Source of the DNA: a virus
Taxonomy: Duplodnaviria; Heunggongvirae; Uroviricota; Caudoviricetes
DNA length: 15,003 bases
IMG/VR virus record: IMGVR_UViG_2734482594_000016
Direction: 5' to 3' (one strand)
The notes under the pieces were generated by a model. It had not been told where the DNA came from. It did no database searches and saw only the letters and a list, made by a program, of their open reading frames with translations. Below, one piece after another: positions 1 to 8,468 of this stretch. Position numbers and translations under genes: made by a program. Every line of letters begins with the position of its first letter. The first letter of the stretch is position 1.

Positions 1-17
1 GCACAAACTTTACGCAT
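1..17 (-). CDS. lom: lom-like outer membrane protein, first 5 codons only; gene runs off the left edge
   Basis: Reverse complement of 1-17 reads ATG CGT AAA GTT TGT GC (MRKVC), identical to the start of the complete lom copy at 7890; positions 1-311 are the inverted copy of 7596-7906. Confidence 0.5.
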
Positions 18-38
18 AATTACCTCTCGCTTTTCTGC

Positions 39-65
39 AATAAAAAAGGCGTCATTCCTGACGCC
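39..65 (-). terminator. Rho-independent terminator downstream of the inverted J fragment
   Basis: Stem GGCGTCA / TGACGCC (48-54, 59-65) with 4-nt loop, followed on the - strand by a U-run (plus-strand A-run 42-47); same hairpin as at 7842-7868. Confidence 0.6.
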
Positions 66-87
66 ATTTATTGGGGTTATAAATATT

Positions 88-1929
88 TCAACGAATACTG
101 ATGCCGGAAGCCGCTTTTTTGGTCACAATCACCGTACAGTCGGTGATATTGCCTGCCCCCTGATTGCCTTTCTGGAAAATCTTAAACTCCAGAGTGACGC
201 TACCACCACCACTAGGCATATCAATAACTGCACTGTAACTACCGGGAATGGCACCTTTAGTTTCTCTGGATGCGATTAATACGCCGTTTTTGCGAACTTC
301 AAAACCATAACCCGTGTATCGCGTGCCTCCTGGGTTATTTCCGCTCCCCGGATCGTCATACGCTATACCGTTAAAAATAATGGGCGGAATAATAATCTGG
401 CGGTCAAAGTTATGATCATCGCTTATGGTGACTGTAACCGTCCCGTTTGGTGTTTCCGTGTTACCCCACGTACCAGCCTGTTTCGGAAATGATTTGGATA
501 CAGCTTTAACGAAGTCACCTCTGACCTGAGTCGCCTCCAGCATGCCCTTAATCGTACAGTTTTCATTTACCGTGACATTGTTGAGCGTCCCGGCGTTCGC
601 ATTCACACTGCCACTGATATCCGCATTTTTAGCGGTCAGCTTTCCGTCCGGAGTCAGGGAAAATGCCGATGGATTTCCACCGCTGGTAATGGTGGGGGCC
701 GTCAGGCGTTTCAGGAACACGTCGTTCATGAATATCTGATCGCCCTGACCAACAAACATCGGTTTTGTGTTGCCATTCGCAGGATTAACCATCGCAATCC
801 TGTCCGCCGCCAGCAGCACCTGACTCTGCATGCCGTCAGGGGTGTTCTCAATACCGGCACCAATACCCGCGATATAAAGGCGTCCGTCCTGCATCTGCTG
901 CAGCTTCACAGCCCACATGCTGTTCAGGTTATTATTTGTATCAACCTGAACCTTCTGTATCTGCTGAATTGCCGCACTCTGGTCTTCCAGTTTCTTATTG
1001 ACGGTCTGCGTGATTTCATTGCTGACATCCGTAATGGACGTCCTGATTTCAGCCAGGTCAGGCGCAAGCTGACCGTTATCAATCTGCGTCCACAGCTCCT
1101 GAGCCAGATGGGTTTTCCCTATCTCGCCTTTGAAAAAATCCAGATAACCGGATGCATCATCACTCGGCTGACCAACAGCCTCCACGAATGCCGATTTGCC
1201 AACGGTGTTCACACTGCGGATATAAAAGTAATAATCATGGCCCGGTTTGATATTGATACTGGCGGCTATCCAGTACAGCGCCGTGCCAAGATAGCGTGCT
1301 GTGGTTTCAACCTGCCTGATATCCGCAATCCGCTTTTCCGAGAACCAGAACTCAAACTGTACCGTCGGATCATAAACCGCAAGATGCGGCGTGGCGGTTA
1401 TCTGAAAATAGCCCGGCGTCAGCTCAATCCGCGACAGCGCTGCCGGTGCGGCAATCCGGAACGATACCGACGCCGGATCGCCCTGCTGCCCCCACGCATT
1501 TACTGCCCGGACTGTCAGCCTGTAGTTCCCCAGCGCCAGTTGTGTGAAGCGGTAAGTGGTTTCCGTCGTCCGGGCCGTGCTGACCAGCCGCTCACTGCCG
1601 TCATCCGCTGTTACGGTCAGACGGAGCAGGAAGCTCACCCCCTTCACCACCTTCGGCGTGTCCCAGCGCGCCAGCACCTGATATTCCCCGCTGTCTGCGG
1701 TGACTTCGGCAGTCAGGTGCTGCACCGCTGGCGGCGTGACACCATTCACCGTGCCGCTCTGGTCGCCGTCAAAGTGCGCCCCGTTATCCACGATGGCTTC
1801 TTTTTCCGGCACATGCTGCACGGCGGTGATGGCATACGTGCCGTCGTCGTTCTCACGGATACTCACGCAGCGGAACAATCGCTGGTGCAGCGTCGGCAGC
1901 TTCAGCCCCCACACGCTGTATTCAGCAAC
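88..1929 (-). CDS. J: Host specificity / tail tip protein J, C-terminal ~613 aa (variant 2); 5' end lost in the N gap
   Basis: Translation begins [55 protein letters not shown] and continues with fibronectin-like repeats and a distal domain; near-identical to the + strand J over the first ~240 aa, then divergent. Stop codon at 88-90. The rest of the track ORF 88..2328 (X run and the part antisense to I) is not real. Confidence 0.85.
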
Positions 1930-2212
1930 NNNNNNNNNNNNNNNNNNNNNNNNNNNNNNNNNNNNNNNNNNNNNNNNNNNNNNNNNNNNNNNNNNNNNNN
2001 NNNNNNNNNNNNNNNNNNNNNNNNNNNNNNNNNNNNNNNNNNNNNNNNNNNNNNNNNNNNNNNNNNNNNNNNNNNNNNNNNNNNNNNNNNNNNNNNNNNN
2101 NNNNNNNNNNNNNNNNNNNNNNNNNNNNNNNNNNNNNNNNNNNNNNNNNNNNNNNNNNNNNNNNNNNNNNNNNNNNNNNNNNNNNNNNNNNNNNNNNNNN
2201 NNNNNNNNNNNN
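1930..2212. other. Run of 283 N (assembly gap or masked sequence)
   Basis: Directly visible; interrupts both the inverted J fragment and the 5' end of I. Confidence 1.
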
Positions 2213-2654
2213 GTTACATGAGGCTCTGCCTGACGGCGCTGTGATTCATATTGTTCCCAGAGTCGCCGGGGCCAAGTCAGGTGGTGTATTCCAGATTGTC
2301 CTGGGAGCAGCCGCCATTGCCGGATCATTCTTTACCGCCGGAGCCACCCTTGCAGCATGGGGGGCTGCCATTGGTGCCGGTGGTATGACCGGCATTCTGT
2401 TTTCTCTCGGTGCCAGTATGGTGCTCGGCGGTGTGGCTCAGATGCTGGCACCGAAAGCCAGAACTCCCCGCACACAGACAACGGATAACGGTAAGCAGAA
2501 CACCTATTTCTCCTCACTGGATAACATGGTTGCCCAGGGCAATGTTATGCCTGTTCTGTATGGTGAAATGCGCGTGGGGTCACGTGTGGTATCTCAGGAG
2601 ATCAGCACGGCAGACGAAGGGGACGGTGGTCAGGTTGTGGTGATTGGTCGCTGA
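2213..2654 (+). CDS. I: Tail assembly protein I, 3' portion (~146 codons); 5' end in gap
   Basis: Frame is open from the gap edge (LHEALPDGAV IHIVPRVAGAKSGGVFQIVLGAAAIAGSFF...MPVLYGEMRVGSRVVSQEISTADEGDGGQVVVIGR), matching the C-terminal part of lambda I as I remember it. Stop at 2652-2654. The track start at 2241 is a GTG inside the real gene. Confidence 0.85.
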
Positions 2655-2714
2655 TGCAAAATGTTTTATGTGAAATCGCCTCCGGGCGGTTTTATCGTTT
2701 ATGGAGCATGACGA

Positions 2715-6904: not shown

Positions 6905-6925
6905 GCAGAAAAGCGAGAGGTAATT

Positions 6926-7407
6926 ATGCGTAAACTTTATGCCGCCATTTTGTCCGCAGCCATTTGTCTGGCCGTATCCGGTGCGCCTGCATGGGCGTCT
7001 GAACATCAGTCCACGCTGAGCGCGGGGTATCTTCATGCCCGGACGAACGTTCCCGGCAGTGATGATCTGAACGGGATTAACGTGAAATACCGTTATGAGT
7101 TTACGGACACACTGGGGATGGTGACGTCGTTCAGCTATGCAGGAGACAAGAATCGCCAGCTGACCCATTACAGCGATACCCGCTGGCATGAAGATTCCGT
7201 GCGTAACCGCTGGTTCAGCGTGATGGCGGGGCCGTCTGTACGCGTGAATGAATGGTTCAGCGCGTATGCGATGGCGGGTGTGGCTTACAGCCGTGTGTCG
7301 ACTTTCTCCGGGGATTATCTCCGCGTAACTGACAACAAGGGGAAAACGCACGATGTGCTGACCGGAAGTGATGACGGTCGCCACAGCAACACGTCTCTGG
7401 CGTGGGG
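6926..7407 (+). CDS. lom: Lom-like outer membrane protein (Ail/Lom family), copy 1, N-terminal 160 aa; 3' end in gap
   Basis: ATG at 6926 with GAGG 6 nt upstream; signal-peptide-like start [24 protein letters not shown], then a beta-barrel-like sequence. The track ORF 6926..7819 is a chimera across the N run into the J variant-2 tail. Confidence 0.8.
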
Positions 7408-7595
7408 NNNNNNNNNNNNNNNNNNNNNNNNNNNNNNNNNNNNNNNNNNNNNNNNNNNNNNNNNNNNNNNNNNNNNNNNNNNNNNNNNNNNNNNNNNNNN
7501 NNNNNNNNNNNNNNNNNNNNNNNNNNNNNNNNNNNNNNNNNNNNNNNNNNNNNNNNNNNNNNNNNNNNNNNNNNNNNNNNNNNNNNNNNNNNNNN
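7408..7595. other. Run of 188 N
   Basis: Directly visible. Confidence 1.
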
Positions 7596-7819
7596 GTTAT
7601 GGTTTTGAAGTTCGCAAAAACGGCGTATTAATCGCATCCAGAGAAACTAAAGGTGCCATTCCCGGTAGTTACAGTGCAGTTATTGATATGCCTAGTGGTG
7701 GTGGTAGCGTCACTCTGGAGTTTAAGATTTTCCAGAAAGGCAATCAGGGGGCAGGCAATATCACCGACTGTACGGTGATTGTGACCAAAAAAGCGGCTTC
7801 CGGCATCAGTATTCGTTGA
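7596..7819 (+). CDS. J: Last ~74 codons of J (variant 2), 5' end in gap
   Basis: Encodes [73 protein letters not shown] then TGA at 7817-7819; identical to the C-terminus of the inverted fragment at 88-311. Confidence 0.8.
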
Positions 7820-7841
7820 AATATTTATAACCCCAATAAAT

Positions 7842-7868
7842 GGCGTCAGGAATGACGCCTTTTTTATT
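7842..7868 (+). terminator. Rho-independent terminator after the J variant-2 3' end
   Basis: GGCGTCA-GGAA-TGACGCC hairpin followed by a T-run (7860-7865). Confidence 0.65.
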
Positions 7869-7889
7869 GCAGAAAAGCGAGAGGTAATT

Positions 7890-8468
7890 ATGCGTAAAGT
7901 TTGTGCAGCCATTTTGTCCGCAGCCATTTGCCTGGCCGTATCCGGTGCGCCTGCATGGGCGTCTGAACATCAGTCCACGCTGAGCGCGGGGTATCTTCAT
8001 GCCCGGACCAACGTTCCCGGCAGTGATGATCTGAACGGGATTAACGTGAAATACCGTTATGAGTTTACGGATACGCTGGGGCTGGTGACGTCATTCAGCT
8101 ATGCAGGAGACAAGAATCGCCAGCTGACCCGTTACAGCGATACCCGCTGGCATGAAGATTCCGTTCGTAACCGCTGGTTCAGCGTAATGGCGGGGCCGTC
8201 TGTGCGCGTGAATGAATGGTTCAGCGCGTATGCGATGGCGGGTGTGGCTTACAGCCGTGTGTCGACTTTCTCCGGGGATTATCTCCGCGTAACTGACAAC
8301 AAGGGGAAAACGCACGACGTGCTGACCGGAAGTGATGACGGTCGCCACAGCAACACGTCTCTGGCGTGGGGAGCTGGCGTGCAGTTTAACCCGACCGAAT
8401 CCGTGGCCATTGATATTGCACAGTGTTATGACAGCCCGCCGGTTCAGGCGGGCTTTTTTGTGGGGTGA
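7890..8468 (+). CDS. lom: Lom-like outer membrane protein, copy 2 (192 aa), with a divergent and probably truncated C-terminus
   Basis: Almost identical to copy 1 through ...HSNTSLAW, then continues [17 protein letters not shown] and ends [15 protein letters not shown] without the aromatic C-terminal residue usual for beta-barrel proteins. The last codons run through a terminator-like hairpin. Confidence 0.7.
8433..8460 (+). terminator. Terminator-like hairpin lying inside the 3' end of lom copy 2
   Basis: AGCCCGCC-GGTTCA-GGCGGGCT followed by TTTTTT, 6-35 bp before the lom stop and just upstream of the stf start. Confidence 0.5.

What the first reader, a model, noticed from the sequence alone, without database searches (positions are those of the whole stretch)
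1..7906. Inverted 311-bp repeat: an inverted J 3' fragment and lom start sit directly upstream of I
Positions 1-311 are the reverse complement of 7596-7906 (J variant-2 tail, terminator, lom start), and the inverted J continues to 1929. A J 3' end pointing toward the 5' end of I is not a natural lambdoid gene order. It indicates either a scaffold join between different lambdoid prophages or a real inversion between prophage copies. No invertase gene is present in the window, so a programmed tail-fibre switch is not supported.
Basis: partly seen in the sequence, partly recalled or inferred. Interest (0 to 1): 0.5.

Follow-up and report, generated by a model that had tools for sequence, protein, structure and literature searches.

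The report
Scaffolding artefact in phage-plasmid tail genes
The 311-base inverted repeat is real in the deposited sequence, but it is a by-product of how a short-read draft assembly stitched together two similar copies of phage tail genes, not a biological inversion or switch.

Summary
Positions 1-311 are the perfect reverse complement of 7596-7906, and the inverted J reading frame runs to 1929.

The window is the entire public record CXAI01000103.1 (15,003 bp, assembly GCA_001249355.1). It is a scaffold of four sequence blocks separated by three N runs.

- One repeat arm ends at the record end and the other ends at an N run.
- The inverted block carries J codons 553-1165. The I-J block stops at J codon 528.
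- Flipping block 1 and placing it after block 2 leaves a 70-nt hole, overlaps block 4 by 311 bp, and restores an intact 1165-aa J.
- That flipped order is colinear with three complete relatives.
- Block 3 is a paralogous J-lom copy that overlaps block 2 by 487 nt at 96% identity.
- None of 5,426 complete E. coli genomes has the deposited arrangement, and none of nine sister contigs.
- No invertase is present.

The locus is the telomere-proximal arm of an N15-like linear phage-plasmid: I-J-lom-stf-tfa-sopB-sopA, ending 63 nt before the hairpin tip.

Verdict: assembly artefact, low interest. Which J-lom copy sits on the plasmid remains unsettled.

The parts
1..311 (-). Left arm of the inverted repeat: first 17 nt of lom (ATG at 17-15 on the minus strand), terminator hairpin (about 48-65), and J variant-2 stop plus last 73 codons (88-311). 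It ends at the record end.
   Evidence: 100% reverse complement of 7596-7906. The record is 15,003 bp in full.
88..1929 (-). Block 1: J (tail tip protein) codons 553-1165 plus stop, in inverted orientation.
   Evidence: Matches lambda_TipJ profile positions 553-1163. Matches as a single full-length piece in J-lom of 2,073 complete E. coli genomes, up to 97.7% identity. Maps 70 nt downstream of the end of block 2 in L004, L005 and L006.
1930..2212 (.). N run 1 (283 N): the join between inverted J and I. This is the unsupported scaffold link.
   Evidence: No complete genome has blocks 1 and 2 on the same strand next to each other.
2214..2654 (+). Tail assembly gene I, lacking roughly its first 131 nt.
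   Evidence: Aligns to nt 132-573 of the 'tail assembly protein' CDS of pCAVP367-48. There is also a weak, sub-threshold Pfam Lambda_tail_I match.
2715..4300 (+). Block 2: J codons 1-528 (plus 2 nt).
   Evidence: Matches lambda_TipJ profile positions 1-528.
4301..4559 (.). N run 2 (259 N). Both borders carry the same stretch of J (nt 1100-1586) from two paralogues.
   Evidence: 3814-4300 versus 4560-5046 is 95.9% identical. The 746-nt spacing is not a multiple of 3, and the J frame differs on the two sides.
4560..6859 (+). Block 3: J variant 1, codons 368-1132 plus stop. This is a paralogous copy.
   Evidence: Matches lambda_TipJ profile positions 368-1163. 99.75% identical to J-lom of sister phage-plasmid contigs L009, L011 and L015. 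Best match in complete genomes is 98.0%.
6926..7407 (+). lom copy 1, first 161 codons, preceded by the terminator at 6877-6896.
   Evidence: Pfam Ail_Lom, terminator scan. 6869-7407, which includes this lom fragment, is 96.5% identical to the matching stretch of copy 2 (7833-8371); the last 167 nt are nearly identical.
7408..7595 (.). N run 3 (188 N), lying between the 5' part of lom copy 1 and the J variant-2 tail.
7596..7906 (+). Right arm of the inverted repeat: J variant-2 last 73 codons plus stop (7596-7819), terminator (7842-7859), and lom copy 2 start (7890-). It begins at the N run.
7890..8468 (+). lom copy 2. Its 3' end is altered by an 82-nt deletion at 8419 relative to four of the five relatives aligned; the fifth, L016, has a different lom deletion.
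8471..11869 (+). Side tail fibre gene stf (1132 aa counted from the ATG at 8471; the ORF list starts it at the GTG at 8465).
   Evidence: Pfam phage_tail_N, Gp34_trimer and Collar. Relatives are 1132 aa.
11869..12444 (+). Tail fibre assembly gene tfa.
   Evidence: Pfam Caudo_TAP. The identical protein occurs on 24 contigs.
12477..13442 (-). sopB (ParB-type partition protein).
   Evidence: NCBIfam PRK13698, 408 bits against a cutoff of 274.
13442..14608 (-). sopA (partition ATPase).
   Evidence: NCBIfam SopA equivalog, 734 bits against a cutoff of 725. 93% identical to N15 gp28.
14609..15003 (.). sop upstream and subtelomeric region. The record ends 63 nt before the hairpin tip of the left telomere.
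   Evidence: In L001 and L005 the palindrome axis (core CCCCATTATACGCGCGTATAATGGGG) lies 63 nt beyond the window's last base. Sister contigs stop 19-39 nt past that axis.

Best explanation
The inverted repeat is an artefact of short-read assembly, scaffolding and gap filling across two paralogous lambdoid I-J-lom regions in one isolate.

One region lies on an N15-like linear phage-plasmid and the other most likely in a chromosomal prophage. The four blocks of the scaffold belong to two colinear loci:
- Copy B: block 2 (I, J codons 1-528), then a 70-nt hole, then the reverse complement of block 1 (J codons 553-1165, terminator, lom start), then 7596-7906 and onwards. The 311-bp 'repeat' is this one stretch written twice, once at the end of block 1 and once at the left edge of block 4.
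- Copy A: block 3 (J variant 1 plus the 5' part of lom copy 1).

Long exact runs shared by the two copies (up to 164 nt) let read pairs link the wrong blocks, and one block was placed in the wrong orientation.

Shown: the redundancy, the tiling, the colinearity with relatives, and the absence of the deposited order elsewhere.

Inferred: which program made the join (possibly an SSPACE/GapFiller-type pipeline), and which of the two copies is physically joined to stf-tfa-sopBA on the plasmid.
For: 1. The window is the entire record, and genes in the public collection were called up to the N runs, so the Ns are original.
2. Both ends of the repeat coincide with assembly boundaries: the record end and an N run.
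3. Block 2 covers TipJ profile positions 1-528 and block 1 covers 553-1163, so the two tile one gene with 24 positions missing.
4. In chromosomal prophage L004 and phage-plasmids L005 and L006, block 2, a 70-nt gap, reverse-complemented block 1 and block 4 (311-nt overlap) are strictly colinear.
5. The reconstruction gives an uninterrupted J of 1165 aa, the same length as in all three relatives.
6. Read literally, the scaffold breaks J. Nucleotides 1100-1586 occur twice at 95.9% identity across N run 2 and the frame shifts. The J tail and lom start occur twice across N run 3.
7. None of 5,426 complete E. coli genomes has blocks 1 and 2 together on one strand.
8. None of nine other contigs that carry the identical Tfa has an inverted J. 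The three whose sequence reaches upstream of I (L009, L010, L011) show L-K-I-J-lom-stf-tfa-sopB-sopA.
9. Greedy scaffolders and gap fillers are documented to produce N gaps and false joins (PMC5320598).
Against: - No reads are available, so the read-pair support for the 1929-to-2213 join cannot be inspected.
- The join is not a simple orientation flip of a true neighbour: the correct end of block 1 is attached to the wrong end of block 2. I found no sequence similarity that would explain that particular link.
- A 311-bp stretch present twice is not what a plain de Bruijn assembler outputs. It requires a later extension step that I infer but cannot show.
- The pipeline used for this assembly is not documented in any paper I could find.
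Confidence: 0.93

Rival explanations
1. A real structural rearrangement in the isolate. An inverted copy of the J 3' end and lom start truly lies just upstream of I, for example after illegitimate or homologous exchange between the phage-plasmid and a chromosomal lambdoid prophage.
For: The scaffolder must have seen some read pairs to make the join. E. coli genomes hold several J-lom copies (median 3 places per genome, up to 15), so substrates for recombination exist.
Against: - Homologous exchange between J copies preserves colinearity within J and cannot place J codon 553 next to I nt 132.
- The inverted fragment starts exactly 24 codons after the point where block 2 stops, and it is 100% identical to the edge of block 4. 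These coincidences are expected only if it is the missing piece.
- The arrangement is absent from 5,426 complete genomes and from nine sister contigs.
Confidence: 0.04
2. A programmed, invertase-driven host-range switch of the Mu Gin / P1 Cin / e14 Pin type, with the 311-bp arms as crossover sites.
For: Inverted repeats in a tail host-specificity region are the hallmark of such switches (my own knowledge of these systems).
Against: - No recombinase family hit was found in the nine genes or nine shadow ORFs scanned.
- No invertase is annotated in the complete relative pCAVP367-48.
- The arms enclose I and the J 5' end plus three assembly gaps, not alternative fibre C-termini.
- There are no inverted repeats of 30 nt or longer around stf or tfa.
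Confidence: 0.005
3. A palindromic duplication caused by the hairpin telomere of the linear plasmid, arising from read-through of the hairpin or from a head-to-head replication dimer, as in the 'circular' records NZ_CP126957.1 and CP088810.1.
For: Those two relatives carry perfect inverted duplications of sopA-sopB-tfa-stf-lom-J.
Against: - In those records the axis of symmetry is the telomere core, 63 nt beyond the right end of the window.
- Here the repeat's axis would fall near position 3950 inside J.
- The inverted block lies at the opposite end of the scaffold from the telomere.
- No inverted sopAB, tfa or stf is present.
Confidence: 0.01

Closest known systems
False joins and partly filled gaps from greedy short-read scaffolding and gap closing (SSPACE and GapFiller, as described for the Sanger pipeline in PMC5320598)
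   Same: - N runs of irregular estimated length.
- Gap borders that carry paralogous or duplicated sequence which fails to merge.
- Contigs from near-identical repeats chained together.
   Different: Use of that particular pipeline for GCA_001249355.1 is my inference from the accession series and the gap pattern. It is not documented. The exact cause of the inverted placement is unknown.
Escherichia phage N15 and N15-like linear phage-plasmids ('telomere phages'), such as pCAVP367-48 (NZ_CP145143.1) and PhiR46_1
   Same: - Lambda-like tail genes I-J-lom-stf-tfa followed by divergently oriented sopB-sopA and then the telomere.
- SopA is 93% identical to N15 gp28 and 99.5% identical to PhiR46_1.
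- The window aligns to within 12 bp of the end of the linear record pCAVP367-48.
   Different: - The protelomerase, repA and the telomere core itself lie outside the window.
- J occurs here in two variants, and only one of them can be on the plasmid.
Invertible tail-fibre segments (Mu G segment with Gin, P1 C segment with Cin, e14 P segment with Pin)
   Same: Inverted repeats in a phage host-range region.
   Different: - There is no invertase.
- The repeats flank assembly gaps and I-J rather than alternative fibre C-termini with their tfa genes.
- The arms are one sequence represented twice.

Membership tests
Assembly/scaffolding artefact | The boundaries of the anomaly coincide with assembly boundaries (record ends, N runs). 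| tested here: met
   The arms are 1-311 (record end) and 7596-7906 (starting at an N run). The 487-nt direct repeat abuts N run 2 on both sides.
Assembly/scaffolding artefact | Re-sorting the blocks restores ordinary colinear genes with nothing left over. | tested here: met
   Block 2, 70 nt, reverse-complemented block 1 and block 4 are colinear with L004, L005 and L006. J is intact at 1165 aa. Block 3 is a second copy.
Assembly/scaffolding artefact | The deposited arrangement is absent from finished genomes and from independent assemblies of the same element. | tested here: met
   0 of 5,426 complete E. coli genomes. None of nine other contigs carrying the same Tfa.
Assembly/scaffolding artefact | Read pairs or long reads contradict the join. 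| not testable with these tools
   No read data are accessible.
N15-like linear phage-plasmid | A SopA/SopB partition module adjacent to the left telomere. | tested here: met
   NCBIfam SopA scores 734 bits (cutoff 725) and ParB PRK13698 scores 408 bits (cutoff 274). SopA is 93% identical to N15 gp28.
N15-like linear phage-plasmid | A lambda-like tail gene cluster upstream of sopAB. | tested here: met
   I, J, lom, stf and tfa are present. The order is the same as in pCAVP367-48.
N15-like linear phage-plasmid | A palindromic telomere site (telO core) at the replicon end. | tested here: inconclusive
   The window stops 63 nt short of the core CCCCATTATACGCGCGTATAATGGGG, which relatives and sister contigs carry at that position.
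N15-like linear phage-plasmid | Protelomerase (TelN) and a RepA replicase. | not testable with these tools
   Both lie outside the 15-kb record. They are present in relatives pCAVP367-48 and L007 and L008 (637-639 aa ORF beyond sopA).
Invertase-driven tail-fibre switch (Gin/Cin/Pin) | A serine invertase gene next to the invertible segment. | tested here: not met
   No recombinase hit in the nine genes or nine shadow ORFs scanned. The scan was not a full six-frame one, but annotated genes fill nearly all of the sequenced part of the window, leaving little room for another gene.
Invertase-driven tail-fibre switch (Gin/Cin/Pin) | Short inverted crossover sites flanking alternative fibre C-termini and their tfa genes. 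| tested here: not met
   The only inverted repeats of 30 nt or longer involve J and lom. None flanks stf or tfa.
Hairpin read-through palindrome | The axis of symmetry lies at the telomere core. | tested here: not met
   The axis of the 311-bp pair lies near 3950, inside J. The telomere lies beyond 15003.

The most novel reading that the evidence does not exclude
The isolate's phage-plasmid, or a prophage, truly carries an inverted duplicate of the J receptor-binding end and lom start upstream of I. That would be a recombination scar showing exchange of tail-tip modules between an N15-like plasmid and a chromosomal lambdoid prophage.
Probability: 0.03. Interest if true: 0.25.

Novelty: not a real feature. 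Interest (0 to 1): 0.05.

Why it matters
It has little biological importance. Its value is practical.

- It shows how draft scaffolds of strains with several lambdoid tail modules can mimic inversions, tandem duplications and truncated genes.
- J, lom and 'inverted repeat' calls from this record, and probably from others of the same CW../CX.. series, should not be used as evidence of tail-fibre switching or rearrangement.
- It identifies the record as the telomere-proximal arm of an N15-like phage-plasmid. This class of element is easily overlooked and often misassembled.

Tried and rejected
- An exact-pattern scan of genome contigs across N run 1 found nothing. The source was instead identified by exact protein look-up.
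- A literature search for the accession numbers found nothing, so the assembly method is inferred only.
- A search for short inverted or direct similarity that could explain why block 1 was linked to the left end of block 2 found nothing convincing; the longest hits were 14-19 nt.
- I tried to decide which J-lom copy belongs to the plasmid and could not.
  - Block 3 is 99.75% identical to sister-plasmid J-lom, against at most 98.0% in complete genomes. This favours block 3.
  - Complete phage-plasmids with the variant-2 J also exist (L005, L006), and 7596-8419 is about as close to sister L014 as the rest of block 4 is (98.7% versus 98.9%).
  - Sliding-window identities are mosaic and do not decide.
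- The invertase switch, the hairpin palindrome and a diversity-generating retroelement were considered and rejected. For the retroelement, no reverse transcriptase turned up in the proteins scanned and the arms are 100% identical.
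Full report
**What is in the sequence**

The window has four blocks of sequence separated by three runs of N:
- block 1: 1-1929
- block 2: 2213-4300
- block 3: 4560-7407
- block 4: 7596-15003
- N runs: 283, 259 and 188 bases

Positions 1-311 are a perfect reverse complement of 7596-7906. The arm holds the last 73 codons and stop of a J variant, a terminator-like hairpin (7842-7859) and the first 17 nt of lom. The inverted J frame continues to 1929 (613 aa).

Two further redundancies exist:
- 3814-4300 versus 4560-5046, direct, 95.9% identical.
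- 1093-1929 versus 5117-5953, inverted, 94.5% identical, beginning with a 164-nt exact run.

**Where it comes from**

An exact-protein look-up shows that the window is the complete public record CXAI01000103.1 of assembly GCA_001249355.1, 15,003 bp long. Genes in that collection were called only up to the N runs. So the Ns are original scaffold gaps, position 1 is a true record end, and the outer end of one arm and the inner end of the other are assembly boundaries.

**What the locus is**

The best relatives are 46-48 kb plasmids that carry a protelomerase at one end and sopA-sopB at the other. An example is the linear record pCAVP367-48.

- SopA passes the NCBIfam SopA equivalog cutoff (734 bits against 725), and the sopB product passes the ParB family model PRK13698 (408 bits against 274).
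- SopA is 93% identical to gp28 of phage N15 and 99.5% identical to phage PhiR46_1.
- The window's last base aligns 12 bp from the end of pCAVP367-48.
- It also aligns 63 nt before the centre of the palindrome CCCCATTATACGCGCGTATAATGGGG in two other relatives.
- Sister contigs from the same accession series end 19-39 nt past that centre.

The record is thus the telomere-proximal arm of an N15-like linear phage-plasmid: I, J, lom, stf, tfa, sopB(-), sopA(-), telomere. Such elements are a known group (PMC7969092, seen in the listing only). The one I opened, bioRxiv 10.1101/2025.09.12.675607, reports differences among them mostly in the tail genes.

**Why the inverted block is an artefact**

1. 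Against the NCBIfam lambda_TipJ profile, the J fragment of block 2 covers positions 1-528, block 1 covers 553-1163 and block 3 covers 368-1163. Blocks 2 and 1 therefore tile a single J with 24 positions missing. Block 3 is a second, overlapping copy.

2. Three complete relatives were compared: a chromosomal prophage (L004, NZ_CP073936.1) and two phage-plasmids (L005, CP088810.1, and L006, E. albertii NZ_CP117614.1). In all three, block 2, a 70-nt gap, the reverse complement of block 1, and block 4 (overlapping by 311 nt) are strictly colinear.

3. The reconstruction reads as an uninterrupted J of 1165 aa, exactly the length of J in those three relatives.

4. Read literally, the scaffold is not a viable gene map.
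   - J nt 1100-1586 occur twice across N run 2, with a 746-nt spacing that is not a multiple of three, and the frame changes.
   - The J tail and lom start occur twice across N run 3.
   - A J 3' half faces I across N run 1.
   - All three anomalies sit at N runs and all vanish when the blocks are sorted into two colinear loci.

5. A search with 1-4300 found no complete E. coli genome (0 of 5,426) with blocks 1 and 2 together on one strand. Block 1 alone matches as an ordinary single piece of J-lom in 2,073 genomes.

6. Nine other contigs encode the identical Tfa protein, eight of them from the same CW../CX.. accession series as the window. None of the nine has an inverted J. The three whose sequence reaches upstream of I (L009, L010, L011) show L-K-I-J-lom-stf-tfa-sopB-sopA.

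**Mechanism (inferred)**

The isolate holds at least two lambdoid I-J-lom regions that are 94-97% identical and share exact runs of up to 164 nt. Short-read assembly breaks at such repeats. A greedy scaffolder then links blocks through read pairs that map to both copies, and a gap filler extends block edges with reads from either copy.

That accounts for gap borders which overlap in sequence yet do not merge, and for one stretch (J tail to lom start) being written twice. The Sanger Velvet/SSPACE/GapFiller pipeline is described as producing N gaps and as liable to false joins (PMC5320598). Whether this assembly used that pipeline is not documented.

I could not find any sequence feature that explains why block 1 was attached, inverted, to the left end of block 2 in particular.

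**What remains open**

Which J-lom copy is physically joined to stf-tfa-sopBA is not settled.

In favour of block 3 being the plasmid's own copy:
- Block 3 is 99.75% identical to J-lom on sister plasmid contigs, against at most 98.0% in any complete genome.
- The interior of block 1 is 99.6-100% identical to a chromosomal prophage.
- Together these suggest that blocks 1, 2 and about 7596-8204 are chromosomal, with block 4 chimeric through the nearly identical lom 3' part (one mismatch in 167 nt).

Against that:
- Phage-plasmids with the variant-2 J exist (L005, L006, L013, L014).
- 7596-8419 is about as close to sister L014 as the rest of block 4 is (98.7% versus 98.9%).

Either way the 311-bp pair is not an inverted repeat on one molecule 7.3 kb apart.

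**Rivals**

- A real rearrangement would need an illegitimate junction between J codon 553 and I nt 132, and it leaves the exact tiling unexplained.
- An invertase switch is excluded. No recombinase was found in the proteins scanned, none is annotated in a complete relative, and there are no inverted repeats around stf or tfa.
- A hairpin-telomere palindrome of the kind seen in NZ_CP126957.1 and CP088810.1 has its axis at the telomere. The axis here would lie inside J.

**Verdict**

The feature is an assembly artefact within a known kind of element. Interest is low.

Noticed in passing
window 12477-15003; L002 (NZ_CP145143.1), full record: The record is the telomere-proximal arm of an N15-like linear phage-plasmid. 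It carries sopB and sopA on the minus strand, then 395 bp, and ends 63 nt before the hairpin tip. SopA is 93% identical to N15 gp28.
   Followed up: yes
L001 (NZ_CP126957.1) about 28940-29067; L005 (CP088810.1) about 16491-16618: Two 'circular, complete' plasmid records of 68 kb and 81 kb contain perfect inverted duplications of J-lom-stf-tfa-sopB-sopA centred on the telomere core CCCCATTATACGCGCGTATAATGGGG. They look like long-read read-through of a hairpin end, or head-to-head dimers, rather than true circles. In NZ_CP126957.1 several genes in one arm are annotated as frameshifted.
   Followed up: partly
window 8419 (between ...GATATTG and CACAGTG...): An 82-nt deletion relative to four of the five relatives aligned removes roughly the last 20 codons and the stop of lom copy 2 and part of the lom-stf spacer. 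The product is a 192-aa protein with a foreign C-terminus. It could be a real deletion or a gap-closure error. Sister contig L016 has a different internal lom deletion between CTGGCG repeats.
   Followed up: partly
window 14897-14964: The 18-nt motif AAGAACACAAATAAAGAA occurs twice, 50 nt apart. Its core AGAACACAAA occurs three times in the AT-rich subtelomeric region about 100-170 nt from the hairpin tip. These may be binding sites for the protelomerase or partition proteins.
   Followed up: no
L007 7190-7300; L008 6285-6400: In two other assemblies the contig runs straight from sopA through the telomere core into a 637-639 aa ORF that has no Pfam hit on record and sits where pCAVP367-48 has its protelomerase. 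This is the uncut (virion or circularly permuted) junction, or a graph join through the shared palindromic core. The sequence on the far side diverges about 8 nt after the core.
   Followed up: no
L002 43567-44469; L006 13354-14256 (window equivalent about 11869): Some relatives carry a macro-domain gene inserted between stf and tfa. The window, L001 and L005 lack it, and stf abuts tfa.
   Followed up: no
window 8850-9800: The N-terminal third of Stf is a long Ala/Ser/Thr-rich low-complexity stretch with many shadow ORFs on both strands. The ORF listing start at GTG 8465 is probably wrong; relatives start at the ATG at 8471 (1132 aa).
   Followed up: no
L009 2332-2584: A sister scaffold (CWTO01000036.1) has a 253-N run at the I/J boundary, with an over-long I (202 aa) and a J lacking its first roughly 41 codons. 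This is the same kind of gap problem in the same region.
   Followed up: no
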